A DNA stretch of 64,000 nt, from positions 121-64,120 of the forward strand of contig CAZMGG010000011.1 of NCBI GenBank assembly GCA_964565715.1, written 5' to 3'. The first letter of the stretch is position 1. Every line of letters starts with the position of its first letter. The stretch comes from an uncultured candidatus Brocadiaceae bacterium. Lineage in GTDB: Bacteria > Planctomycetota > UBA1135 > UBA2386. The position numbers and the translations under genes were made by a program. This document shows, one piece after another, positions 7,032-32,542 of this stretch. A model generated the notes under the pieces. It worked only from the letters and a program-made list of their open reading frames with translations, ran no database searches and had not been told where the DNA came from.

Positions 7032-9218
<2,187 letters not shown>

Positions 9219-16358: not shown

Positions 16359-16435
<77 letters not shown>

Positions 16436-16441
16436 GCCCGG

Positions 16442-17992
16442 TCAGGACACCGCCACCGGCTCTGCGCAGCGCCGAGGAGCCACCGCCACCGGCGCCGTCA
16501 CGACCTGCCCCCCGACCAGCGCCAGTTCCCGGAAGCCGCACGGCAGCAGCAGGTGGCCGACCATCTCCACATCGCAGCGCCGGGCCTGCTGCAGCAGCAC
16601 CACCTGCCGTTCCCCCGCCTGCGCCGCCAGCTGGAACACCGCCGCCGAGGCGCCGGGGGACGCGGCGGCCGAGGCCACGAGCCGCATCTCCGCCACCGCC
16701 AGCACCAGCCCTTCCGCCGTGCGCACCTGGCCACGCGCCACGTCGATCGTCACCCTTGCCCGCGGCAGCCGCCGGCGCAGCGCGAAGGCCGCCCCGAGCC
16801 CGCCGATCCCGCCCAGGAACGCCAGCACCGCCATGCCGCCGGCGATGCCCCGATCACCGGCCTCGCTGCCCTGCTGGATGCGCGGGTGCGGCGATGGCCG
16901 GCGTTCCCGGTACTTCTTCACGAACGACGCCGGGTGCAGCGCGATCACCGCCAGCAACATCCCGCCGAGCAGCGCCGCCACTCCGAAGCCCGCGGCCGCG
17001 CGGCGTTCGAGCCGGCGCCGCTCGATGCTGGTCCCGAAGCGGACCACGCCACGCAGCCACAGCTGCACCTGCCCCCGTGCGGCCCGGCTGAGCGGCAGCA
17101 CCGCCAGCCACTGCCGCGATGCCGGCTCCTCCCCGCCGACCAGTTCCGGACACGCCGCCGGATCGGCCAGCTCCCGCCTGGGCCTCGCCGGCGCTGGCGG
17201 CGGCGTCACCTCCAGCGCGGCGGCCGGCGGGCGCAGGGCCCAGGCCAGGTCGGCCGCGCGCTCCCAGCGCATCCGGGCGATGCGGCGATCGAGGATCCCG
17301 TCCAGATCGACCAGATGACTGATCGCCATCAGCAGGTGGTAGTGCACGCCCACGGCGACCAGCAGGAACTCCAGTCGCGGGTCGTCGGGGAGATGGCCGA
17401 CCCAGGCGTCCATCGGCAGCACCACCGTGAAGCTGGCGAGCAGCATGGCCAGGATGGCGATGCCGTAGCAGCGGCCGAAGGCGCCGAGCGCGCGCAGCAG
17501 CGCCCGCGCGTTCTCGCCCGAGGGCGGTGCGCTGGCCTCGAAGGCCGTCCAGTGCGCCAGCGCGAACGCCAGGAACACCAGGGTCATCCAGCCCTGGCCG
17601 GCGGGGCTGCTGGCGACGGCCAGCGCGAGGAAGGGCAGCAGGAAGAGCGCGGTGACCAGGGTGCGCCGGCCGCGGCTGGCGATGCCACCGCGCAGGCGCA
17701 GGGCGAGGTCGCCGAGCAGCACCGCCAACGGCAGCAGGCAGCCGAAGCACGAGGCCAGGAACTCGTGCAGGGGCCACATGGCGAAGGTGCGCAGCTCGTC
17801 GGTGAGCCGGTAGCCCTGGCGGAGGAAGGCCAGCAGGGCGAGGGCGAACGACAAAGCCAGGAGCAGGTGCGGTGCGGCCGCGACGCTGCGGGCGGCGATC
17901 GAGCGGGTTTCCTGCGGCGGGGCGTCCACGCCCAGGCTGCTTCGGGGATCGGGCCGGGGGGACTGGAGGCGGAAGCCCGGGGCCGGCGGCAT
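16442..17992 (-). CDS. polytopic membrane protein, function unknown
   Basis: Several hydrophobic helices (LLLALSFALALLAFL, LASCFGCLLPLAVLLG, LVTALFLLPFLALAV, GIAILAMLLASFTVVL, LLGGMLLAVIAL, MAVLAFLGGIGGLGAAF). This is the C-terminal part of track ORF 16442..19216. The start is uncertain because the ATG at 17992 lies only 9 bp from the divergent gene. Confidence 0.5.
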   Translation of the reverse strand: MPPAPGFRLQSPRPDPRSSLGVDAPPQETRSIAARSVAAAPHLLLALSFALALLAFLRQGYRLTDELRTFAMWPLHEFLASCFGCLLPLAVLLGDLALRLRGGIASRGRRTLVTALFLLPFLALAVASSPAGQGWMTLVFLAFALAHWTAFEASAPPSGENARALLRALGAFGRCYGIAILAMLLASFTVVLPMDAWVGHLPDDPRLEFLLVAVGVHYHLLMAISHLVDLDGILDRRIARMRWERAADLAWALRPPAAALEVTPPPAPARPRRELADPAACPELVGGEEPASRQWLAVLPLSRAARGQVQLWLRGVVRFGTSIERRRLERRAAAGFGVAALLGGMLLAVIALHPASFVKKYRERRPSPHPRIQQGSEAGDRGIAGGMAVLAFLGGIGGLGAAFALRRRLPRARVTIDVARGQVRTAEGLVLAVAEMRLVASAAASPGASAAVFQLAAQAGERQVVLLQQARRCDVEMVGHLLLPCGFRELALVGGQVVTAPVAVAPRRCAEPVAVS

Positions 17993-18001
17993 GATGGCCG
18001 C

Positions 18002-19288
18002 ATGCGCCCGATCGGTTGCCTCCTTGCCGGTGTGTTCCTGACGATCCTGGCGCCAGCCCAGGAGGCCACGCCGCCGAGCCGGCAGCAGCAGGCGCTTGCC
18101 GGCGAACTGGCGACATTCGCCGAATGGTGCCAGAAGAACGGCTTTCCCGGGCAGGCGGCGGCCGTGGCCCGGGAGGCGCTGGATGCCGATCCCGCGCACG
18201 GCAAGGCCAAGGCGCTGGCGGCCGCCGGCGCCGGCGAGGATGCCGCCGACGAGGCGGCGGGGAAGAAGCTGGCACAACGGCGCGCCGGCGCGGGCAAGCG
18301 CATCGCCACGCTCTACTGCGAAGTGGCCGCCGGCGAGCCGCCGGGCCCGGCCGCCCGCGCGCCGCTGACGGCGGCGTTCCGCTGGGATGCGGGGACGGCC
18401 GATCGCCTCGTCGAGAGCGCGTGGAAGAAGGCGCTGGCCCAGGGCGAACACGCCCGGGCCCACGACCTGCTCAGCGTTGCCCTCGCGCACGAGACGCTGG
18501 GCGCGTCGAGTCGGGCGCAGCAGGCGCGCCGGAAGGCGCTGCACGAGTGCGAGATCGAGCTGGCCCAGAAGCAGCCGTTGCTGCGGCAGGTCCGCGGCCA
18601 TCCGATGCAGTACTGGCTGTCGCTGCCGCAGGGCTGGAGCGGTGACCGCGAGTGGCCGATCCTGGTGGCGGTCGAGGGGGCAGGCTGCAACTTCGTCCGC
18701 ATGAACGGGATCTACGGCGGCAGGGACAATCGCGACTTCGTGGTGGTGACGCCGTGCAGCCTCAGCAACACCAACTCGCTGCAGGAGCAGCGCGGCAACT
18801 ACCCGTATCCGCCGGAGCTGCTGGCCGAGTGGGACCGGCGCCGCATGGAGTTCGACGAAGCGGGGCTGCTGGCCCTGCTGGCCGACGTGCGCGCCGACTT
18901 CCGCGGTGAGGCGAAGGTCTTCGTCACCGGCTTCAGCGGCGGCGGCAACCTGACCTGGCAGATGGTGTTCGCGCATCCCGAACTGCTGGCGGCGGCGGCG
19001 CCGGCCTGCGCCAACTTCGCCGGGCTGCGGGGTGCGGCGTCGACGGCGCCGGAACGCGAGGCGCTGCCGATCCTGGTGGTGCAGGGGGAGGACGATCCGT
19101 TCCGGCCCGATGACAGCAAGAGCCCGCTGGATCGGCAGTGGGCGATGGCGCGGGCGCAGCTGGAGCAGCACGGCTATCGCGGCTGGAGCTACTCGCTGGT
19201 GCCGAAGACCGGGCACGCGCCGTGTGCGGCCGAGGTGCTGGCCTTCTTCCGCAAGGTGGCGGGGGCCTCGCCGACGAAGGATGGCTGA
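18002..19288 (+). CDS. secreted alpha/beta hydrolase (esterase / PHB-depolymerase-like) with helical N-terminal region
   Basis: Signal peptide MRPIGCLLAGVFLTILAPAQ. GFSGGG is a nucleophile elbow. A ...GHAP histidine lies near the C-terminus. Only the last 428 aa of track ORF 16424..19288 look real. Confidence 0.7.
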   Translation: MRPIGCLLAGVFLTILAPAQEATPPSRQQQALAGELATFAEWCQKNGFPGQAAAVAREALDADPAHGKAKALAAAGAGEDAADEAAGKKLAQRRAGAGKRIATLYCEVAAGEPPGPAARAPLTAAFRWDAGTADRLVESAWKKALAQGEHARAHDLLSVALAHETLGASSRAQQARRKALHECEIELAQKQPLLRQVRGHPMQYWLSLPQGWSGDREWPILVAVEGAGCNFVRMNGIYGGRDNRDFVVVTPCSLSNTNSLQEQRGNYPYPPELLAEWDRRRMEFDEAGLLALLADVRADFRGEAKVFVTGFSGGGNLTWQMVFAHPELLAAAAPACANFAGLRGAASTAPEREALPILVVQGEDDPFRPDDSKSPLDRQWAMARAQLEQHGYRGWSYSLVPKTGHAPCAAEVLAFFRKVAGASPTKDG

Positions 19289-19303
19289 GGTGCGGCGCGG
19301 CGG

Positions 19304-25151: not shown

Positions 25152-25775
25152 ATGGACCGACTGATCGAACGATTCCCCCTCAAGCGCGGCGCCCACCAGG
25201 GTCGCCGGGACGGCATGTGCGCCATGGAGATGGTGGCGTGGCTCGCCGGCGAGGAGCACAGCGACGAGCCGCAGTGCGCCTGTCCGGTGATCGCCGCGTT
25301 CGTCCGCGCGCTCAACGACGCGCTGCCGAGCGATGCGGCGCGGACCCGCTGGCTGCGGCCGCTGGTGCCGCAGCTGGTGAACACCCGCGGCAGTGCGGCC
25401 GACGAACGGCGGCGCGGGCTGCAGGTGGCCGACGCGGTGGTGCGTGAGATCCTGCCGAAGGCGTTGCAGCGGGCGGGACGGACCGCCGAGGCGGATCTGT
25501 TCCGGCTGCTGCCGCCGGTGGCGGATCGGGCCAACGCGGCGCTGGCGTTGTGCGCGCTGCGGGCCTACGCCCAGGACCAGCACGCCGCCGAATGGCTGCT
25601 GGAGCGCGCCGCCGACGGCGCCACGCCGGCGCGGTTCGTCGCCGCCGGCGTGCAGGCGGCGCGGGAGGCGGCGGGCACCGACGGCCTGCGGGCGTGCGTC
25701 GACATCGTGCTGCGGATCTGCGGGCCACAGGGCGCCCAGGACGTCGCCGCGGACGCCCGCGAACTGGGCGCCTAG
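25152..25775 (+). CDS. hypothetical protein with N-terminal Cys cluster
   Basis: MDRLIERFPLKRGAHQGRRDGMCAMEMVAWLAGEEHSDEPQCACPVIAAFVRALND... The frame has good GC3. Its stop overlaps the convergent gene stop (CTAG at 25772-25775). Confidence 0.55.
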   Translation: MDRLIERFPLKRGAHQGRRDGMCAMEMVAWLAGEEHSDEPQCACPVIAAFVRALNDALPSDAARTRWLRPLVPQLVNTRGSAADERRRGLQVADAVVREILPKALQRAGRTAEADLFRLLPPVADRANAALALCALRAYAQDQHAAEWLLERAADGATPARFVAAGVQAAREAAGTDGLRACVDIVLRICGPQGAQDVAADARELGA

Positions 25776-26953
25776 CGGCCCAGGTAGTCGCGCAGCTCGC
25801 GGCTGCCCTGGGGCGGCACCCGGGCGGCCACGTCGTCCGGTCGCGCCAGGGCGAACGCGATGCCCAGCGAGAACGGGCCGATCGGCGCGTGGTTGCCGGT
25901 GTAGCGGCCATGGCCGTGGTAGCTGCCCTTCGCTACGAGATCGAAGCCGGTGACCTTGCCGTCCTTCACGCGCACTTCGCCCCGCAGGCGCAGGTGGTAG
26001 CCGCGGGCCGGCGCGCCATCGCCGGCGGGGGCTTGGGCGCGGGCCTCGCCGCGCACGACGAAGCGACCGTCGCCGGCCGGTTCCATGGTGAAGTCGGCCT
26101 GCCACACCTCGCGCGCGCGCCACATCGGCGGCTCGCCGCGGCTGTTGTCGATCAGGTGGAAGCGGGCGATGCGGGTGCCGAGGGTCTCGGGCCAGTGGCC
26201 ACGGGCCAGCGCGTCGGCCTCGGGCCCGGTGACCCAGAGGTGGTCGCGGCCGAGCCCTTCGCGGAACGGCCGGTGCCACTCGGGGTGCTCGACCTCGGGC
26301 CAGCGGGCCTCCAGCACGCGCGTGAAGACGGCGACGACGAGACCGCCGGCCGGCGGCGTGCGGGCGAACGTGGGATCGACGGCGGCAGCGCTGTCGGCGC
26401 CGGTGGCGGGGCTTGCCTCCGGCTTGCCCGTGGCAAGATGCTTCGTCAGCAGATCGCGCAGCCTGCCGGCGTCGCGGTGGTTCCAGCCGTGCACCAGGGT
26501 CCCGTCGGGTTCGGCCAGGTAGAACCCCTGGGTCGTCCGGCCCGGCGTCATGCCGTCGCGCTGGAACACGATCTTGCGGTAGAGCTCGCCCTCGGCGTCC
26601 TGCTGCCGGACGTGATACCACTCGTCCACCGCCACCGGCACGAAGTGCTCGCGCAGCCGCGCGATCACCGTCGGATCGGCGAAGCTGGACGCACGGTCCA
26701 GCACGCCGTTGTTTCAGGTGCAGCCGAGCGGATGGCCGTTCATCGACCAGACGAACAGGCGCTTGCCGTCCGCCTTCGCCTCGGCGGCGGCGGCCACGAG
26801 CTGCAGCCGCCAGGGGATCGTCTGCCAGGGCTCCGGTGCTGCGGGCACGAGCTGCGCGTGCAGCGACCGGAACTCGGCGGCGGTGAGCGGCGGCGGGGTG
26901 GGCGCGGGATCCTGGGGCGCCAGCAGGGTCACGGTGAGCAGGAGCGCGAGCAT
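25772..26953 (-). CDS. secreted thioredoxin-like protein with in-frame TGA (candidate selenoprotein, C-T-U) or disrupted gene
   Basis: Track ORFs 26714..26953 and 25772..26704 share one frame and are separated only by TGA AAC AAC GGC. The junction reads ...KRLFVWSMNGHPLGCT-TGA-NNGVLDRASSFADPTVIARLREHFVPVAVDEW. The signal peptide is on the upstream piece only. There is no SD for the downstream piece. Confidence 0.55.
26684..26702 (-). other. candidate SECIS-like hairpin
   Basis: On the mRNA, 11 nt 3' of the UGA, a perfect stem GCUGGAC/GUCCAGC forms with loop CGUGC. On the plus strand this is gctggac gcacg gtccagc. Confidence 0.4.
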
Positions 26954-26999: not shown

Positions 27000-29900
27000 T
27001 CAGCGGGCCGGGCCCGCCATCCGCGCCAGCAGTTCCTCCAGTGGCCCGCGGCGGCAGTGCCGCAGCCAGGGGCCGCTGACCGCCAGGGCCAGCGCCGTGT
27101 AGCCCAGGAAGGCGGCGAGCCCGACGGCCATCGGCCAGTCCTCGGCGGGCCAGGCGGCGCGCAGCAGCGGGAACAGCAGGGCCACGTGCAGCAGGTAGTG
27201 GGTGAGCGACAGCCGGCCGACGGCGGTCAGCGGCGCCCATGCGCGGCCGTTCGTGCGCAGCAGCAGGCAGCCACCGGTCACCGCCACCGCTCCGCTCGTC
27301 GCCAGCAGCAGGAACGGCAGCGTGGTCGGCACCCAGGTGAAGGCGAGCGGTGCCGCGGTGTCCGCCAGCGCGGCGTCGGCGGTGGCCTGCACGAGCTGCA
27401 GCGGCAGCAGGGCGGCCAGGGCCAGCCAGGTCCAGCGCCGCAGCCGGGCCGGCCGGTCGAGGCCCGCGCGCACCATGGCGATGCCGAGCAGCGGCAGGGC
27501 GAGCCACGGCAGCACCGGGTAGTTGCCGTCGAACAGGTAGTAGCGCACGGTCACGAGGCCGAAGGCGCTCCACATGGCGGGCGTGCCGTCCTCGTGCCAG
27601 TCGGCCTCGACCTGATCGCCGATGTGTGGCGCCGCTATGGGCGCCCGCACCCACGCCCCGGGGGCGAGGCCGCGCGCGCGCGAGGCCGGACGGCCCAGCA
27701 CCGGCAGCGCCAGCAGCAGCAGCAGGCCGAGCGGCGACAGCACCTCGGTGGGCCACAGCAGGAGGCCGAACGGGATGCCGAGCGCGATCAGCCCGAGCGC
27801 CCGTCGCGTCTGGCTCCCGACCGCGCGCGGGCCAGGGCCGCGGCCGCGCTGCACCGCCCAGGCGATGCCCGCCAGCAGGCAGAACAGGGCCGCCGGCTTG
27901 CCCTCCAGCAGGCGCGCCAGCAGGGCCGGCAGCAAAGCCCAGCCGTCGCCCTCGGTCGGCACCGTGTGCACGAACACCATGCCGAGCACGGCCAGCCCGC
28001 GGGCGGCATCCAGGGCCGGCAGGCGTGCGGCCGGCACGGTGGGCACGGCCGGTGGCACGGGCACCGGCGGTGCGGTGGGCGCGGCCGGTGCGGTGGGTGC
28101 GCCCGCGTAGTGTTCGCCGGCGGTGAGCCGTTCGTGCTTCATCACCACGCCGTGCGGCCCGACCACGGCGCCTTCGCCGATCGCAGCACCGTAGAGCACG
28201 ACGCTGGCGCGGCCGAGCGTCGCGCCGCGGCCGACGTGCACCGGCGCGGTCTTCAGCACGCGATCCTCGAAGCTGTGGGCCTGGAACATCGTGTCGACGG
28301 TGCCGTGGTCGGCCAGCCGCAGCATGTCGGGATCCACCACCTGGCTGAAGCCGGGGCCGAGCAGCACGGCGCGGCCGATCCGCATGCCCATCGCCCGCAG
28401 GTAGAACGGCAGCAGCAGGGTGCCTTCCAGGTGCTGCAGGAAGGGGGCGGCCCAGCGCTGCCAGCAGACGTAGAGGAAGTCCCAGCGGCTGGCCCAGCAC
28501 GACCACAGGGCGTGCTGGCCCGCGCGCACACGGCCGAGCAGCAGCCACTTGAGCAGCAGCACCAGCAGGCAGGGCGCCAGGGCCGCGACCAGCGTGGCGG
28601 AGCCGAGTGCTGGCAGCAGCAGGCCGAGGTCGGCGGCGAAGCGGGCTTCGGCGCGGCCGGCGAGCTGCAGCCAGAGCAGCGCCAGGAGCGCCGGCACGAC
28701 GGGCAGCAGGAAGCGCAGCCCTTCCCAGAAGAGCCGGTTGCCGCGCCGCAGCAGCCCGGGCTCGTGGGTGAGCCGCCGGTCGATGGTCACCACCTCGCGC
28801 CGCGGCAGCGCGAACGCCGGCAGGCCGAACCAGCCGGTGCCCGCCCGCATCGCGCGATCGTCGGCGATGGTGCAGACGCCCAGCAGCAGGTCGTCGGGCA
28901 GGCGCTGGCCCCCCTCGATCACCGCGTGGTTGCCGACGAAGGTGCGGGCGCCGAGCACCGCCGGCGCCACGGTGACTACGCCCTGCCGCAGGCGCGGCAC
29001 GCCGAGGTAGATGCCGTCGGCGAGGAAGCACTCCTCGCCCAGCGCGGTGTGTTCGGGCAGGGTCTCGAGGATCGTGCTGATCTCGCAGCGGCGGCCGATG
29101 CGCATGCCGGAAAGCCGCAGCCACGCCGGCCAGAACAGGGTGCCGGACAGCCATTCGCCCGCCGACTCCAGCAGGCCGGTGCGCAGCCACAGCCGGGCGT
29201 AGCACGGGTGCCAGCGGCTGAACGCACCCGCCGGCACCTTCGGGCCCCAACGCAGCAGCAGGGCCGCGGCCAGCAGGCGGGCCGGCAGCTCCAGCACCGT
29301 GCTGGCCAGCACCAGCAGCACGGCCAACGGTGCGGTCAGCGGCGCCTGCAGGAAGGCCAGTGCGGCCGGCGTGTCGACGCCACCGAGGTGCAGGGCCAGC
29401 AGCAGGAGCAGGGCGAAGGGCACCGCCAGCAGCGGCTGCAGTCCGAAGCGCAGCAACAGGAGCCGCATGGCGTGCCGCAGGGGCAGCCGGTCGTCGGAGC
29501 GGTCCACGCCCGGCGGTGTCTCGGCCGGTCCGGTGGGACGCGCCGGCACGCCGTCCCAGCGTTCATGGGCCGGCACCCGGCCGCCGGGCGGCAGGAACGC
29601 GAGCGGCCCCAGTTCGGCGCCTTCACCGATCTCGCTGCCGGGACCCATGCCGGCGCGCACGTGCAGCGTCGCCGCGCGCCGCACGGTCACCGGGCCGAAC
29701 ACCAGCTGGCCCTGATCCAGTTCGCACACTCCGAGCGCCGCCTCCTGGCCCACGGTGACGTCGTCGTGCAGTTCCAGCAGGTCCCAGCCGCCGCGCTGCA
29801 GGTCGACGCCGCGATGCAGGTGGACCCGCGCGCCGATGCGGGCGCCGAGCGCGCGCAAGGCCATGTTCTGCAGCTCGGTGCCGGCCAGCAGCGACCATGG

Positions 29901-32000
29901 CACGAGACGCACGGCGCGTTCCACCAGCCAGCAGCGGAAGTGCTGCGCCGTGAACGCCGGCACGCACCCCGGCCGGTACTCGCCGACCAGGAGCTCCTTC
30001 GCCAGCACCGCCAGCCACAGCGCGCCGAGGCCCCAGCCCAGCACGCCGACGAACCCGAAGACCGGCGCCAGCAGGATCGTCGCCACCGGCCCCAGCGTCG
30101 TGATGCCGAACGGCAGCAGCGCGAAGGCCAGCAGGTAGAGCACGCCGCCGCCGAGCACCAGGCTCGCCAGCAGCGTCGCGGTCTGGGCGAGACCGAACCA
30201 GAAGGGCTGCCCGGTCGGGGTTGCCTGCGGCGAGGGAGCTGCCGCGGCCGGCGGGACGACGCGCTCGGCCCGCGCCGCCAGCGCGCGCACGGTCCGCAGC
30301 CCATACACGTCCCGCACCGTGAGCCCCGCGGTGCGCGGGTCGGCACGCAGCAGCGAGATCACCAGCGCCGCACGCAGCGAGTCGCCGCCCAGCGCAAAGA
30401 AGTCGTCGTCCGGAGCCGGCGTCGTGCCGAGGCCCTGCGCCATCGCCTTGGCGATCGCGGCCTCGATGCCCACAGCGGGCGTGGCAGCGGTGCTGGTCGC
30501 GGGTCCGCCCAGTTCGGGCAGCGCCCTGCGGTCGAGCTTGCCGCCGATGGTGCGCGGCAGCGTCGCCAGCACGCCGATGCGGGCCGGCACCATGACCGCC
30601 GGCAGCTCGGCTCGCAGCCGTTCCTGCAGGGCCTGGGCGTCCGGCGGCGCCAGGGGATCCTGCGGCACCACGTGCGCCGCCAGCAGGGCCGCGCCGTCGC
30701 TGCCCTGCACGCGGCAGCCGGCCTCGCGCACGCCGGGGCAGCGGCACAGCGCCGCCTCGATCGCCTCCAGCTCCAGCCGATGGCCGCGCAGCTTGACCTG
30801 CGCGTCGATCCTGCCGTGGTACTCGAGGTCGCCGTCCGGCCGGCGCACGACCCGGTCGCCGGTGCGGTAGATCCGGCCGAACACCGGATGGGTGGGGAAC
30901 TGCCGCGCCGTCAGTTCGGGCTGGCCGAGGTAGCCGCGGGCGAGGCCGATGCCGGCGATGCATAGCTCGCCGGGCTCCCCGTCGGCGATCTCGTGCAGGT
31001 CCTTGTCGAGCACGTGGGCGTGGTTGCCCGGCACCGGTTGGCCGATGCTGACCGGCCGGCCGGGCTGCAGGCGCGTGCGCGTCACCGTCACCGAACACTC
31101 GGTCGGCCCGTAGCCGTTCTCCAGCCACAACGCCGCGGCCCAGCGGTCGCACAGGTCCTGCGGCATCGCCTCGCCGCCGGCGTAGCACAGCCGCAGGTCC
31201 GGCAATTCCCGCCCCACGTCGGTGACGTGCATGCTCCGCAGCAGCGTCGGCGGCGGGCACAACACGGTGATCCGTTCCTGCCGCAGCCACGCCGGCAGGT
31301 CCGGGCCGAGCCGCACGGTGGCGTCGTCGAGCAGCACCACCGTGGCGCCGCTGGCGAGCGCCAGGAAGGTCTCCTCGACGGAGCTGTCGTAGGCCGGCGA
31401 GCTGCCCTGGGCGATGCGGTCGCCGGGCCCGAGCCCGAAGCGGCGCACGCCTTCCCGGATCAGGTTGACGACGCCGCCGTGCTCCAGCATCACCGCCTTC
31501 GGCGCGCCGGTGGTGCCCGAGGTGTAGATCAGGTAGGCGAGGCGGTGCGGATCGGCGGGGTGCTCCCATTCGGCGGCCGCTGGCCGCCCATCGGCCAGCG
31601 CCGCTGCGGCGTCGACGATCCGCCCGGCGAAGCCCAGCGCCCGCGCCCGTGCGGTGCCGGCGGCGTCGGTCACCAGCGCCACCGCAGCGCTGTCGTGCAG
31701 CACGTGCCGCAGGTGCGCATCGGGGAAGTGCGGCTCCAGGCACACCCAGGCGGCGCCGGCCCGCAGGATCGCCAGCTTTGCGGCGTAGAGTTCGCAGCCC
31801 TGCCGCGGCAGCAGCACCGCGACCACCCGTTCCCCGCCATCGGGCGGGCCGAGGCGGGCGGCCAGCGCTGCCGCGTCGGCATCGAGTTCGCGGTAGGTGC
31901 GGCCCTGCCGCCGCGGCCGCCCTTCTCCCGGCGGCACGTCGACCGCCGGCGCGTCGGGCCAGCGCCGAAGCGCCGCGGCGAACAGGTCCTGCAGCAGCAT
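27000..32000 (-). CDS. Pls/PosA-type single-module NRPS (A-T, then three TM + hexapeptide-repeat-like modules) fused to a C-terminal DUF418/acyltransferase-like polytopic domain
   Basis: Adenylation motifs LAYLIYTSGTTGAPKAVMLEHGG, GELCIAGIGLARGYLG, YRTGDRV and KLRGHRLELEAIE. Carrier motif FFALGGDSLRA. Three repeats follow of hydrophobic helices plus left-handed-helix-like segments (LGARIGARVHLH..., SGMRIGRRCEIS..., MGMRIGRAVLLG...). A Pro/Ala linker (28020-28105) is followed by LPALDAARGLAVLGMVFVH...RRGPLEELLARM. I chose the ATG at 32000 (MLLQDLF). Confidence 0.85.
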   Translation of the reverse strand: MLLQDLFAAALRRWPDAPAVDVPPGEGRPRRQGRTYRELDADAAALAARLGPPDGGERVVAVLLPRQGCELYAAKLAILRAGAAWVCLEPHFPDAHLRHVLHDSAAVALVTDAAGTARARALGFAGRIVDAAAALADGRPAAAEWEHPADPHRLAYLIYTSGTTGAPKAVMLEHGGVVNLIREGVRRFGLGPGDRIAQGSSPAYDSSVEETFLALASGATVVLLDDATVRLGPDLPAWLRQERITVLCPPPTLLRSMHVTDVGRELPDLRLCYAGGEAMPQDLCDRWAAALWLENGYGPTECSVTVTRTRLQPGRPVSIGQPVPGNHAHVLDKDLHEIADGEPGELCIAGIGLARGYLGQPELTARQFPTHPVFGRIYRTGDRVVRRPDGDLEYHGRIDAQVKLRGHRLELEAIEAALCRCPGVREAGCRVQGSDGAALLAAHVVPQDPLAPPDAQALQERLRAELPAVMVPARIGVLATLPRTIGGKLDRRALPELGGPATSTAATPAVGIEAAIAKAMAQGLGTTPAPDDDFFALGGDSLRAALVISLLRADPRTAGLTVRDVYGLRTVRALAARAERVVPPAAAAPSPQATPTGQPFWFGLAQTATLLASLVLGGGVLYLLAFALLPFGITTLGPVATILLAPVFGFVGVLGWGLGALWLAVLAKELLVGEYRPGCVPAFTAQHFRCWLVERAVRLVPWSLLAGTELQNMALRALGARIGARVHLHRGVDLQRGGWDLLELHDDVTVGQEAALGVCELDQGQLVFGPVTVRRAATLHVRAGMGPGSEIGEGAELGPLAFLPPGGRVPAHERWDGVPARPTGPAETPPGVDRSDDRLPLRHAMRLLLLRFGLQPLLAVPFALLLLLALHLGGVDTPAALAFLQAPLTAPLAVLLVLASTVLELPARLLAAALLLRWGPKVPAGAFSRWHPCYARLWLRTGLLESAGEWLSGTLFWPAWLRLSGMRIGRRCEISTILETLPEHTALGEECFLADGIYLGVPRLRQGVVTVAPAVLGARTFVGNHAVIEGGQRLPDDLLLGVCTIADDRAMRAGTGWFGLPAFALPRREVVTIDRRLTHEPGLLRRGNRLFWEGLRFLLPVVPALLALLWLQLAGRAEARFAADLGLLLPALGSATLVAALAPCLLVLLLKWLLLGRVRAGQHALWSCWASRWDFLYVCWQRWAAPFLQHLEGTLLLPFYLRAMGMRIGRAVLLGPGFSQVVDPDMLRLADHGTVDTMFQAHSFEDRVLKTAPVHVGRGATLGRASVVLYGAAIGEGAVVGPHGVVMKHERLTAGEHYAGAPTAPAAPTAPPVPVPPAVPTVPAARLPALDAARGLAVLGMVFVHTVPTEGDGWALLPALLARLLEGKPAALFCLLAGIAWAVQRGRGPGPRAVGSQTRRALGLIALGIPFGLLLWPTEVLSPLGLLLLLALPVLGRPASRARGLAPGAWVRAPIAAPHIGDQVEADWHEDGTPAMWSAFGLVTVRYYLFDGNYPVLPWLALPLLGIAMVRAGLDRPARLRRWTWLALAALLPLQLVQATADAALADTAAPLAFTWVPTTLPFLLLATSGAVAVTGGCLLLRTNGRAWAPLTAVGRLSLTHYLLHVALLFPLLRAAWPAEDWPMAVGLAAFLGYTALALAVSGPWLRHCRRGPLEELLARMAGPAR

Positions 32001-32011
32001 GGGGCGGGAGG

Positions 32012-32542
32012 CTATCCGCCCGTGCTGCCGCCGCCGTCCTGTTCCTCGCGGACCCGCAGGTGGTCGGCGAGCCAGGGCCGCAGCGTCCGCCGACGCGCCG
32101 GCAAGAGGTGACGGAAGCCGCGCACGACGCCGACGCAGTCCCTGGCACCGCAGCCGCACGGGAACGGGCTCGCCAGTTCCCATTCGGTGGTGTGATAGTC
32201 GAACGTCACCTCGGCGAAGGCCCGGATTCCGGTCCGCGCCAGCAGCGTGCGACCGCGCAGGAACGCATTCGGCGCGCAGGCGTGGTTGAGGAAGCGCCAC
32301 GGATGGTGGTCCATGGCCTCCTCGAGGGCGACCTCGGCCGGCAGCTCGACGTGCTCGTGCGGGCCGACCTGCACCGAGAAGCGCGATGGCACGGGCACGA
32401 CGATGCCGTCGATCGGCAGGACCGGCTCGCCCCGCCGGATCGCCTCGGTGGCGATCACCTGGAACTGGTGACGGGTGCGCACCACCGCGACGCGGCTCTG
32501 TGTGGGCGACGGACGGGACGGGGACGGCTGCAGATCGGTCAT
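32012..32542 (-). CDS. SET-domain protein (putative lysine methyltransferase)
   Basis: WRFLNHACAPNAFL, EVTFDY and the post-SET-like cluster PFPCGCGARDC. The stop lies 11 nt upstream of the NRPS ATG on the same strand. Confidence 0.8.
   Translation of the reverse strand: MTDLQPSPSRPSPTQSRVAVVRTRHQFQVIATEAIRRGEPVLPIDGIVVPVPSRFSVQVGPHEHVELPAEVALEEAMDHHPWRFLNHACAPNAFLRGRTLLARTGIRAFAEVTFDYHTTEWELASPFPCGCGARDCVGVVRGFRHLLPARRRTLRPWLADHLRVREEQDGGGSTGG

What the first reader, a model, noticed from the sequence alone, without database searches (positions are those of the whole stretch)
25772..26953. In-frame UGA at the redox position of a secreted thioredoxin-fold protein, with a perfect hairpin 11 nt downstream: candidate selenoprotein (C-T-U)
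- **Seen in the sequence.** Two track ORFs on the minus strand (26953..26714 and 26704..25772) are in the same frame. They are separated only by TGA (26716-26714) followed by AAC AAC GGC.
- **Upstream piece.** It carries the only signal peptide (MLALLLTVTLLAPQ) and stops at ...GKRLFVWSMNGHPLGCT.
- **Downstream piece.** It continues NNGVLDRASSFADPTVIARLREHFVPVAVDEW. It has no signal peptide, no ATG and no Shine-Dalgarno, only a GTG 9 nt after the stop.
- **Read together.** The junction looks like the strand/active-site-loop/helix of a thioredoxin-like (Thioredoxin_7 / DUF255-like) domain, with the stop exactly where the second redox residue is expected.
- **Established knowledge.** Sec replaces Cys in many bacterial thiol-oxidoreductase-like proteins, and a CxU arrangement is known from Sep15.
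- **Hairpin.** The mRNA forms GCUGGAC-CGUGC-GUCCAGC (26702-26684) starting 11 nt after the UGA. This puts a G/U-containing apical loop about 18 nt downstream, compatible with bacterial SECIS geometry.
- **Not global recoding.** Other genes here (fur, lgt, glnN, the giant 1029..5366 gene) end in TGA.
- **Inference.** This is a Sec-containing periplasmic oxidoreductase of a family I cannot name. It lies 46 nt downstream of the NRPS gene on the same strand.
Basis: partly seen in the sequence, partly recalled or inferred. Interest (0 to 1): 0.78.

Follow-up and report, generated by a model that had tools for sequence, protein, structure and literature searches.

The report
New secreted thioredoxin-like selenoprotein family
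The apparent stop codon splitting this gene is almost certainly read as selenocysteine, which makes it one 393-residue exported thioredoxin-like protein from a widespread Planctomycete/Verrucomicrobial family that databases annotate as a truncated hypothetical protein.

Summary

- **The stop codon.** The two minus-strand ORFs (26953..26714 and 26704..25772) are one gene interrupted by TGA at 26716-26714.
- **Conservation.** All 83 related loci with readable upstream DNA carry TGA at exactly this column. It sits inside the conserved peptide W[AS]M[ND]GHPLGC[TV]-U-NNGVLDR.
- **Cys homologues.** Of 23 uninterrupted distant homologues, 8 have Cys at that column.
- **The hairpin.** It fits all four published bacterial SECIS criteria and places G23-U24 in the loop, as in E. 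coli fdhF. One stem pair covaries through three pair types at synonymous sites with no broken pair. The codons GAC and CGT in the hairpin are frozen, unlike the same amino acids elsewhere in the gene.
- **Sec machinery.** A tRNA-Sec gene lies about 240 nt (L019) and about 300 nt (L059) downstream of the orthologue.
- **Structure.** An AlphaFold model (pLDDT 91) shows an N-terminal thioredoxin-like domain, closest to the DsbH/Thioredoxin_7 type, plus a beta-rich C-terminal domain with no significant match.
- **Novelty.** There is no Pfam or NCBIfam hit. The family does not match any of the 119 prokaryotic selenoprotein families catalogued in 2026.
- **Open points.** The biochemical function is unknown. 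Sec machinery in the window's own genome could not be checked.

The parts
25772..26953 (-). Complete selenoprotein gene: 393 codons with UGA (Sec) at codon 80, followed by the TAG stop at 25774-25772.
   Evidence: Searches show one frame. Searches show the same architecture in 83 loci. One search gives a confident single-chain model (pLDDT 91.4).
26912..26953 (-). Probable signal peptide (MLALLLTVTLLAPQ). The cleavage site was not predicted with a tool.
   Evidence: Hydrophobic N-termini are seen in most orthologues. This was read by eye and is an inference.
26714..26716 (-). In-frame UGA, proposed selenocysteine codon (residue 80).
   Evidence: TGA is at this column in 83 of 83 loci. Cys occupies the column in 8 of 23 uninterrupted homologues.
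26720..26722 (-). Cys78 codon, the proposed resolving partner in the C-x-U motif.
   Evidence: Cys is conserved in about 98% of orthologues: 79 of 81 distinct genes and 26 of 28 aligned members. It is replaced by Gly in L008 and Ala in L050.
26677..26708 (-). SECIS-like stem-loop. Counting the U of UGA as nt 1:
- lower stem nt 9-13 pairs with nt 36-40;
- upper stem nt 15-21 pairs with nt 27-33 (26702-26684);
- apical loop C22-G23-U24-G25-C26.
   Evidence: Fold. The 5-bp core is conserved in 80 sequences, with CG/GC/UA covariation at one pair and no broken pair. Synonymous sites are frozen. It fits the bSECIS criteria quoted.
26429..26881 (-). Thioredoxin-like domain (residues about 25-175), with the C-x-U loop between strand 65-71 and helix 82-103.
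   Evidence: AlphaFold model. Foldseek top hit is 7tkv_A, a Thioredox_DsbH domain, at probability 1.0. Sub-threshold Pfam hits to Thioredoxin_7 and Thioredox_DsbH.
25775..26356 (-). Beta-rich C-terminal domain (residues about 200-393) with the conserved motifs RDHLW, RFHLIDNTRGEPPMW and VPPQG. Function unknown.
   Evidence: Confidently modelled with no significant PDB match and no Pfam hit. Conserved columns are listed.

Best explanation
Window 26953..25772 (minus strand) is one gene for a 393-residue exported selenoprotein.

**Decoding (well supported).** UGA at codon 80 is decoded as selenocysteine by the standard bacterial route. A short stem-loop inside the coding sequence begins 11 nt after the UGA and presents G23-U24 in its apical loop. 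It would recruit SelB carrying Sec-tRNA(Sec) to the ribosome.

**Protein (fold modelled, chemistry inferred).** The protein has an N-terminal thioredoxin-like domain. The redox loop reads G-C78-T-U80-N-N-G, just before the first helix. A beta-rich C-terminal domain of unknown fold class follows. I infer that:
- Sec80 takes the place of the attacking Cys of a thioredoxin-type CxxC site;
- Cys78 resolves the intermediate by forming a selenenylsulfide;
- the protein therefore acts as an extracytoplasmic thiol/selenol oxidoreductase, or a redox-sensing binding module;
- the C-terminal domain supplies substrate or ligand specificity.

The substrate and the physiological role are unknown.
For: 1. 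**Conserved UGA in a conserved peptide.** TGA is at the same column in 83 of 83 loci from Planctomycetota, Verrucomicrobiota and related bins. The peptide is conserved on both sides. The codons just after the UGA vary synonymously (AAC/AAT, GGN), so they are translated.
2. **No restart codon.** The supposed restart codon is not a start codon in at least 12 loci.
3. **Gene callers truncate the family.** All of the top 120 database homologues cover only about 68-79% of the query, and most start at the same (M)LDR.
4. **Sec/Cys pair.** In an exhaustive search, 23 of the best 150 representatives run through the junction without a stop. Of these, 8 have Cys at the Sec column, as C-T-C or x-T-C. One Cys form examined at DNA level has TGT and lacks the hairpin.
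5. **Hairpin.**
   - The 5-bp core is present in 80 of 80 sequences.
   - Pair 24:36 is CG 57, GC 17 and UA 4 with none broken, and both sites are third codon positions.
   - Asp86 is GAC in 80/80, against 50-67 of about 80 at other conserved Asp columns.
   - Arg87 is CGT in 79/81, against 5-15 of about 80 elsewhere.
   - All four bSECIS criteria quoted from PMC13188914 are met: loop 5 nt, G then U at loop positions 2-3, 18 nt between UGA and loop, and MFE -22 kcal/mol.
   - The loop G23-U24 is at the same distance from the UGA as in E. coli fdhF.
6. **tRNA-Sec nearby.** A tRNA-Sec gene (Rfam RF01852, 66.8 and 68.5 bits against a threshold of 47) lies about 240 nt downstream of the orthologue in L019 and about 300 nt downstream in L059.
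7. **Sec machinery in the phylum.** Planctomycetes with full selA/B/C/D sets are documented (PMC4807772).
8. **TGA is a real stop elsewhere.** It ends other window genes and ends this same gene in 30 of 84 loci.
9. **Fold.** AlphaFold gives pLDDT 91.4 and pTM 0.89. The best PDB match is a Thioredox_DsbH domain, followed by AGR2, peroxiredoxins, Sco1 and DsbE. Sub-threshold Thioredoxin_7/DsbH hits span the Sec site in 10-12 of 28 members.
Against: - selA, selB, selC and selD could not be looked for in the genome that the window comes from. The window holds only a tRNA-Arg.
- There is no experimental evidence of selenium incorporation.
- The conserved hairpin core is short (5 bp). Rfam has no matching model.
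- The redox mechanism is inferred from fold and motif only.
  - The model's confidence is lowest around the Sec loop (block means 72-81), where few aligned sequences were available.
  - Two orthologues lack Cys78 (L008, L050), so a selenenylsulfide cannot be universal.
- Many paralogues have lost both redox residues. The module can therefore work without redox chemistry.
Confidence: 0.9

Rival explanations
1. There are two separate genes: a 79-aa exported peptide, then a 310-aa protein started at the GTG nine nt after the stop. They would be translationally coupled, perhaps as a split protein whose halves associate.
For: Gene callers annotate it this way everywhere. GTG is the commonest codon at that position, in 68 of 78 sequences.
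Against: - The codon is GTC, GTT, GTA, ATA or ATC in at least 12 loci, with no alternative start nearby.
- The three 'intergenic' codons encode an invariant N-N-G with synonymous variation.
- No Shine-Dalgarno sequence is present.
- Uninterrupted homologues are single chains with Cys at the stop column.
- The model puts strand 65-71 and the helix after the UGA in one thioredoxin fold.
Confidence: 0.03
2. The UGA is read through as a standard amino acid (Trp, Cys or Gly). This could happen by near-cognate read-through stimulated by the hairpin or by a reassigned genetic code, without selenocysteine.
For: UGA-to-Trp reassignment exists in some Verrucomicrobiota (abstract of PMC13462651). Downstream hairpins can stimulate read-through in general (general knowledge).
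Against: - TGA is a normal stop in the window and at the end of this very gene in 30 loci.
- Homologues show Cys at the column, never Trp.
- The hairpin geometry and loop match bSECIS rules.
- tRNA-Sec genes sit next to two orthologues.
Confidence: 0.04
3. The gene is a pseudogene, or the TGA is a sequencing or assembly error in this contig.
For: None beyond the presence of a stop codon.
Against: The identical TGA is found in 83 independent assemblies, with purifying selection on both sides.
Confidence: 0.01

Closest known systems
Thioredox_DsbH / DUF255 (PF03190) and Thioredoxin_7 (PF13899) domains, for example Brucella Bab1_2064 (PDB 7tkv)
   Same: - Best structural match: Foldseek probability 1.0, 128 aligned columns.
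- Weak sequence matches run across strand 1, the active-site loop, helix 1 and strand 2.
- Both share the FVPVxVD-type second strand.
   Different: - Scores are below the Pfam thresholds: at most 19.4 bits against 27.
- The active-site loop is about 5 residues longer.
- The motif is C-x-U rather than CxxC.
- The C-terminal partner is a beta-rich domain, not the alpha/alpha barrel of DUF255 proteins (the latter from my own knowledge).
[quoted passage not shown] Both appear in Table 1 of PMC13188914.
   Same: They are bacterial thioredoxin-like selenoproteins with Sec in the redox motif. Sec.1 also has a CxU motif.
   Different: No hit to NF041199, PF13192 or any other NCBIfam or Pfam model at E <= 1. 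The domain architecture and size also differ.
E. coli fdhF SECIS element
   Same: It lies in the coding sequence immediately 3' of the UGA. The upper stem starts at nt 15 and G23-U24 sit in the apical loop.
   Different: - There is no sequence similarity outside the GU.
- The loop is CGUG[C/A].
- In most family members an unpaired C16 separates the core from a weak lower stem, whereas fdhF has a bulged U17/U18.
- The conserved core is only 5 bp.
Eukaryotic Sep15 (SELENOF), a thioredoxin-like selenoprotein with a CxU motif
   Same: A C-x-U redox motif on a thioredoxin-like fold, in a protein that leaves the cytoplasm.
   Different: No detectable sequence relationship: the Pfam scan returned no Sep15/SelM family. 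The SECIS type and location are bacterial. The C-terminal domain is unrelated.

Membership tests
Bacterial selenoprotein gene (SelB/bSECIS-dependent UGA decoding) | In-frame UGA conserved among orthologues, with protein-level conservation on both sides | tested here: met
   83 of 83 loci have TGA, flanked by the conserved W[AS]M[ND]GHPLGC[TV] and NNGVLDR motifs.
Bacterial selenoprotein gene (SelB/bSECIS-dependent UGA decoding) | Cys-containing homologues aligned at the Sec column | tested here: met
   8 of 23 uninterrupted representatives have Cys there. The codon is TGT in L085.
Bacterial selenoprotein gene (SelB/bSECIS-dependent UGA decoding) | bSECIS consensus: apical loop 3-9 nt, upper stem 4-16 bp, G in the first two loop positions, 16-37 nt from UGA to loop, MFE <= -7.5 kcal/mol | tested here: met
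   Criteria were taken from PMC13188914.
- Loop CGUGC, 5 nt.
- Stem 7 bp in the window and 5 bp in the family core.
- G then U at loop positions 2-3.
- 18 nt spacing.
- MFE -22 kcal/mol in the window and -11.3 for the family consensus.
Bacterial selenoprotein gene (SelB/bSECIS-dependent UGA decoding) | RNA-level selection on the hairpin (covariation, synonymous constraint) | tested here: met
   Pair 24:36 is CG 57, GC 17, UA 4, with 0 unpaired. GAC is 80/80 and CGT 79/81, against mixed usage at control columns.
Bacterial selenoprotein gene (SelB/bSECIS-dependent UGA decoding) | selA, selB, selC and selD present in the same genome | tested here: inconclusive
   - The window has no tRNA-Sec and the rest of its genome is not available.
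- tRNA-Sec lies about 240 nt (L019) and about 300 nt (L059) downstream of the orthologue.
- Full sel gene sets are reported for other Planctomycetes (PMC4807772).
- Complete genomes carrying the gene could not be scanned.
Bacterial selenoprotein gene (SelB/bSECIS-dependent UGA decoding) | Selenium actually incorporated at the UGA | not testable with these tools
   This needs 75Se labelling or mass spectrometry.
Thioredoxin_7 (PF13899) / Thioredox_DsbH (PF03190) | Score above the Pfam gathering threshold | tested here: not met
   The window protein has no hit at E <= 1. Other members reach at most 19.4 bits against a threshold of 27.
Thioredoxin_7 (PF13899) / Thioredox_DsbH (PF03190) | Thioredoxin fold with the redox motif between strand 1 and helix 1 | tested here: met
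   Model topology is b65-71, loop with C78/U80, a82-103, b104-110, b143-147, b153-157, a162-174. Foldseek hits 7tkv, AGR2, Prx, Sco1 and DsbE.
Thioredoxin_7 (PF13899) / Thioredox_DsbH (PF03190) | CxxC (or CxxS) active-site spacing | tested here: not met
   The motif is C-T-U followed by N-N-G, with no Cys three residues after Sec.
Any of the 119 catalogued prokaryotic selenoprotein families (PMC13188914, Table 1) | Match to the family's Pfam or NCBIfam model | tested here: not met
   No Pfam-A or NCBIfam 20.0 hit at E <= 1. Families listed only by a CDD id (cd02966, cd02970, cd10141, cd01144) could not be scanned directly, but their motifs (UxxC, UGC, UxxS, CU/GxUC, CxxU) differ.

The most novel reading that the evidence does not exclude
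This would be the founding, essentially Sec-obligate member of an uncharacterised extracytoplasmic two-domain module of the PVC superphylum.

- The same module serves as the outer sensor domain of Ser/Thr kinases and FecR-type anti-sigma factors.
- In its free secreted form it would use a C-x-U selenenylsulfide switch to sense or transform a specific periplasmic redox-active ligand.
- It could be one of the selenoproteins that keep the Sec-decoding trait alive in Planctomycetes, as hinted by the adjacent selC in two genomes.
Probability: 0.3. Interest if true: 0.75.

Novelty: new member of a known kind. Interest (0 to 1): 0.62.

Why it matters
- **Annotation.** About 350 matching stretches in species-representative genomes, plus many metagenomic proteins (1,194 representatives at E <= 0.001), are currently annotated as a short upstream ORF of about 70-90 aa plus a truncated 300-aa hypothetical protein. 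This includes the RefSeq entry for the cultured Tautonia plasticadhaerens.
- **Selenoprotein catalogue.** Recognising the family adds an apparently uncatalogued entry to the prokaryotic selenoproteome. It is unusual in three ways: it is exported, it carries a C-x-U motif, and it shows no Cys replacement among 83 close orthologues.
- **A new module to study.** The family defines a domain pair with no Pfam model. Planctomycetes also wire this pair to kinases and anti-sigma factors.
- **A SECIS example.** It gives a clean natural case of SECIS constraint on synonymous sites, useful for training SECIS and selenoprotein predictors on PVC genomes.

Tried and rejected
- **Family scans.** Pfam and NCBIfam scans of the full protein gave no hits. 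An Rfam scan of the region gave only chance matches.
- **Structure.** A single-sequence AlphaFold run was useless, with pLDDT 40. I then used the window protein with X at the Sec position, plus database fragments, which worked.
- **Exhaustive search.** It accepted X at the Sec position.
- **N-terminal search.** A word-indexed search with the N-terminal 119 residues found only the short upstream fragments and no Cys forms. The Cys forms appeared only in the exhaustive search.
- **PDB sequence search.** It returned only a short, probably accidental similarity to the acyl-CoA carboxyltransferase motif GHPVGIVANNGVL, at E 0.013.
- **Gene neighbourhood.** Clustering of 83 loci found no conserved partner. 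Sulfatase genes were nearby in 7 loci, and these genes are abundant in these phyla anyway.
- **Second candidate in the window.** The TGA at 9216 is just the glnN/lgt gene boundary.
- **Source of the window.** Looking up the window's own protein to learn its origin returned nothing.
- **Literature.** Searches found no description of this family. A 'hypothetical' selenoprotein candidate in Planctomycete P1 (PMC4807772, Table S9) could be related but cannot be checked.
Full report
**1. What is in the sequence**

On the minus strand, an ATG at 26953 opens a 79-codon ORF that ends with TGA at 26716-26714. The next codons are AAC AAC GGC GTG, and the frame then stays open to TAG at 25774-25772. Read through, the junction is ...GKRLFVWSMNGHPLGCT-[UGA]-NNGVLDRASSFADPTVIARLREHFVPVAVDEW...

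The hairpin GCUGGAC-CGUGC-GUCCAGC lies at 26702-26684, starting 11 nt after the UGA. The 42 nt from the UGA fold at -22 kcal/mol, with z = -4.6, and 1 of 200 shuffles folds as well.

The window is 73% G+C. I scanned every TGA for coding-type GC3 periodicity on both sides, and only two sites passed. One is this site. The other is the glnN/lgt boundary at 9216, which is two ordinary neighbouring genes. TGA is therefore a normal stop in this organism, and this junction is unique in the window.

**2. The stop is conserved, and the sequence around it is translated**

- **Database homologues are truncated.** A protein search returned 342 homologues.
- **First loci examined.** In Tautonia plasticadhaerens, a Planctomycetota MAG and a JGI contig, a small ORF ends nine nt before the homologue. 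Reading through gives the same junction.
- **Genome scan.** A scan of one genome per GTDB species found 356 matching stretches and returned 80 loci. They are mostly Planctomycetota, with several Verrucomicrobiota bins and a few bins under other labels. Every locus with upstream sequence, 83 of 83, has TGA at the same column and none has a Cys codon. The flanks read W[AS]M[ND]G[HN]PLGC[TV] and NNG[VIL][LVI]DR.
- **No restart.** The codon where gene callers restart is GTG in most loci, but it is GTC, GTT, GTA, ATA or ATC in at least 12. Reinitiation is therefore not a general explanation.
- **The 'intergenic' codons are translated.** The second Asn codon is AAC 63 and AAT 18. The Gly codon uses all four synonyms.
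- **TGA still works as a stop.** The true end of the same gene is TGA in 30 loci, TAG in 29 and TAA in 24.

**3. Sec/Cys pair**

An exhaustive phmmer search of 1.84 billion representatives gave 1,194 hits at E <= 0.001. Most alignments begin at query residues 84-91. Among the best 150, 23 run through the junction without a stop. Aligned, the Sec column holds:

| Residue at the Sec column | Representatives |
|---|---|
| Cys, as C-T-C | P0135, P0140, P0148, P0159, P0241 |
| Cys, as x-T-C | P0180, P0210, P0235 |
| E, G, A, S, N, Y, D, R or H | the other 15 |

One Cys form examined at DNA level (L085) has TGT and no hairpin at +15..+33.

**4. The hairpin behaves as a SECIS element**

- **Conservation and covariation.** In 80 distinct sequences the core UNGAC / CGUG[C/A] / GUCN'A is always present. 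Counting from the U of UGA, it spans nt 17-21 and nt 27-31, separated by the loop. Alignment pair 24:36 joins the third position of the Leu/Val/Ile codon to the third position of the Ser codon. It is C-G in 57 sequences, G-C in 17 and U-A in 4, with none unpaired.
- **Frozen synonymous sites.**

| Position | Codon use in the hairpin region | Same amino acid at other conserved columns |
|---|---|---|
| Asp86 | GAC 80/80 | GAC 41-67 of about 80 |
| Arg87 | CGT 79/81 | CGT 5-15 of about 80 |
| Asn81, directly after the UGA | AAC 81/81 | AAC 41-69 of about 73-81 |

- **Published criteria.** The bSECIS model in PMC13188914 asks for a 3-9-nt loop, a 4-16-bp stem, G in the first two loop positions (usually G then G or U), 16-37 nt between UGA and loop, and MFE <= -7.5 kcal/mol. 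This element has a 5-nt loop CGUGC, a 5-7-bp stem, 18 nt of spacing and MFE of -22 kcal/mol (-11.3 for the family consensus).
- **Comparison with fdhF.** G23-U24 fall at the same numbered positions as the loop G23-U24 of E. coli fdhF. I confirmed that sequence in 5,419 E. coli genomes and folded it alongside. That these two fdhF bases contact SelB is from my own knowledge of the literature and was not checked here.
- **Rfam.** There is no matching family.

**5. Sec machinery**

The window has only a tRNA-Arg, and the rest of its genome could not be reached. ARAGORN run over all fetched loci found a tRNA-Sec (anticodon UCA) about 240 nt downstream of the orthologue in L019 and about 300 nt downstream in L059. 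Rfam RF01852 confirmed both, at 66.8 and 68.5 bits against a threshold of 47. Full selA/selB/selC/selD sets are reported for the Planctomycetes Gemmata obscuriglobus and Isosphaera pallida and for two Porphyra-associated strains (PMC4807772). Direct confirmation in a complete genome carrying this gene remains to be done.

**6. The protein**

- **Model.** With an alignment, AlphaFold gives pLDDT 91.4 and pTM 0.89.
- **N-terminal domain.** Residues about 25-175 have thioredoxin-like topology. Strand 65-71 leads to a loop carrying C78 and U80, then helix 82-103, strand 104-110, strands 143-147 and 153-157, and helix 162-174.
- **Structural matches.** The best PDB match is the Thioredox_DsbH domain of Brucella Bab1_2064 (7tkv, probability 1.0, E 2.7e-3). 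AGR2, peroxiredoxins, Sco1 and DsbE follow. No match reaches E <= 0.001.
- **Sequence matches.** Sub-threshold Pfam hits to Thioredox_DsbH and Thioredoxin_7 span the Sec site in 12 and 10 of 28 members. The best is 19.4 bits against a threshold of 27, and the loop is about five residues longer than in the profiles.
- **Position of Sec.** Sec80 sits two residues before the helix. In my reading this is the place of the attacking Cys of CxxC. That is an inference, because no structural superposition was available to me.
- **C-terminal domain.** Residues about 200-393 are confidently modelled as long antiparallel strands but have no significant structural or Pfam match. They carry the most conserved motifs of the family: RDHLW, RFHLIDNTRGEPPMW and VPPQG.
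- **Export.** Most orthologues start with a hydrophobic signal-like segment, so the protein is probably exported.

**7. Context and relatives**

- No gene neighbour is conserved across 83 loci.
- In the window the gene follows a 1,766-aa protein combining AMP-binding, carrier-protein, hexapeptide and acyltransferase domains. It faces a phosphodiesterase-family gene. Neither association recurs elsewhere.
- In distant paralogues the whole two-domain module forms the C-terminal, presumably extracytoplasmic, part of other proteins:
  - Ser/Thr protein kinases (P0151, P0159, P0180, P0195);
  - FecR-type anti-sigma factors (P0215, P0221, P0266);
  - a sigma-70 fusion (P0236).
- Some of these keep Cys at the Sec column (P0159, P0180) and others have lost it. 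The module can therefore act as a sensor or binding domain. This colours my functional guess: a redox-active binding or catalytic module rather than a general disulfide reductase.

**8. Comparison with what is known**

The 2026 catalogue of 119 prokaryotic selenoprotein families lists a Pfam, NCBIfam or CDD model for each (PMC13188914). This protein hits no Pfam-A or NCBIfam 20.0 model at E <= 1. All database names for family members, Sec forms and Cys forms alike, are 'hypothetical protein', apart from 'serine/threonine-protein kinase' for one kinase fusion. RefSeq WP_145272470.1 of Tautonia is the truncated 300-aa piece.

Literature searches found no description. One unnamed 'hypothetical' candidate in a 2016 Planctomycete paper cannot be excluded as an earlier sighting.

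It works like other bacterial thioredoxin-fold selenoproteins and uses a canonical in-frame bSECIS, so it is a new family of a known kind. Its particular features are the C-x-U spacing, the export signal, the apparent absence of Cys replacement among 83 close orthologues, and the unknown C-terminal domain.

**9. Verdict**

- Selenoprotein with SECIS-directed UGA decoding: about 0.9.
- Extracytoplasmic thiol/selenol oxidoreductase or redox sensor using Sec80 with Cys78: about 0.5. This is inferred from fold and motif only.
- Rivals are each unlikely for the reasons given above: two coupled genes, read-through with a standard amino acid, and pseudogene or sequencing error.

Noticed in passing
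window 26711-26713 (codon after the UGA); alignment A2 columns 10-12: The Asn codon immediately after the UGA is AAC in 81 of 81 sequences, while the next Asn codon varies (AAC 63, AAT 18). This is an unexplained constraint outside the predicted stem, possibly a UGA-context effect.
   Followed up: partly
L019 4137-4236 and L059 4057-4155: A tRNA-Sec gene lies about 240 nt (L019) and about 300 nt (L059) downstream of the orthologous selenoprotein gene in two Planctomycetota/Pirellulaceae MAGs. The other neighbours (galactokinase, LytB, epimerase, ScpB) are unrelated to selenium.
   Followed up: yes
contig of P0148 (JGI 3300048101; no DNA available): A Cys-form homologue (C-T-C-N-N-G) without a signal peptide sits between an asparagine-synthase gene and radical-SAM plus SPASM genes, next to glycosyltransferases. 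This context differs from that of the Sec forms.
   Followed up: no
L003 2477-4501 (also L004): This orthologue carries an extra C-terminal extension of about 290 aa, with a weak, sub-threshold hit to polysaccharide lyase family 14 (E 2.5e-4, 21 bits against a threshold of 27).
   Followed up: partly
proteins P0151, P0159, P0180, P0195, P0215, P0221, P0266, P0236: The whole two-domain module occurs as the C-terminal part of Ser/Thr kinases, FecR-type anti-sigma factors and a sigma-70 fusion. Some of these retain Cys at the Sec column.
   Followed up: yes
window 27000-32300 (- strand): A 1,766-aa protein combines AMP-binding, phosphopantetheine-carrier, hexapeptide-repeat, HGSNAT/acyltransferase_3 and DUF418 regions. 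This is an unusual NRPS-like/membrane acyltransferase fusion directly upstream of the selenoprotein gene.
   Followed up: partly
window 16382-19288 (+) and 16442-19303 (-): Two roughly 960-codon ORFs lie antisense to each other with nearly identical GC1/GC3 profiles (0.84/0.84). I did not resolve which strand is coding. A tRNA-Arg(TCT) lies at 16359-16435.
   Followed up: no
family profile positions 74-110 compared with PDB 4q0g chain A residues 328-364: There is a short local similarity between the Sec-site peptide (mdGhPlgctXnnGvlDRas) and the acyl-CoA carboxyltransferase motif VHGHPVGIVANNGVL (E 0.013). It is probably chance, because the folds differ.
   Followed up: partly
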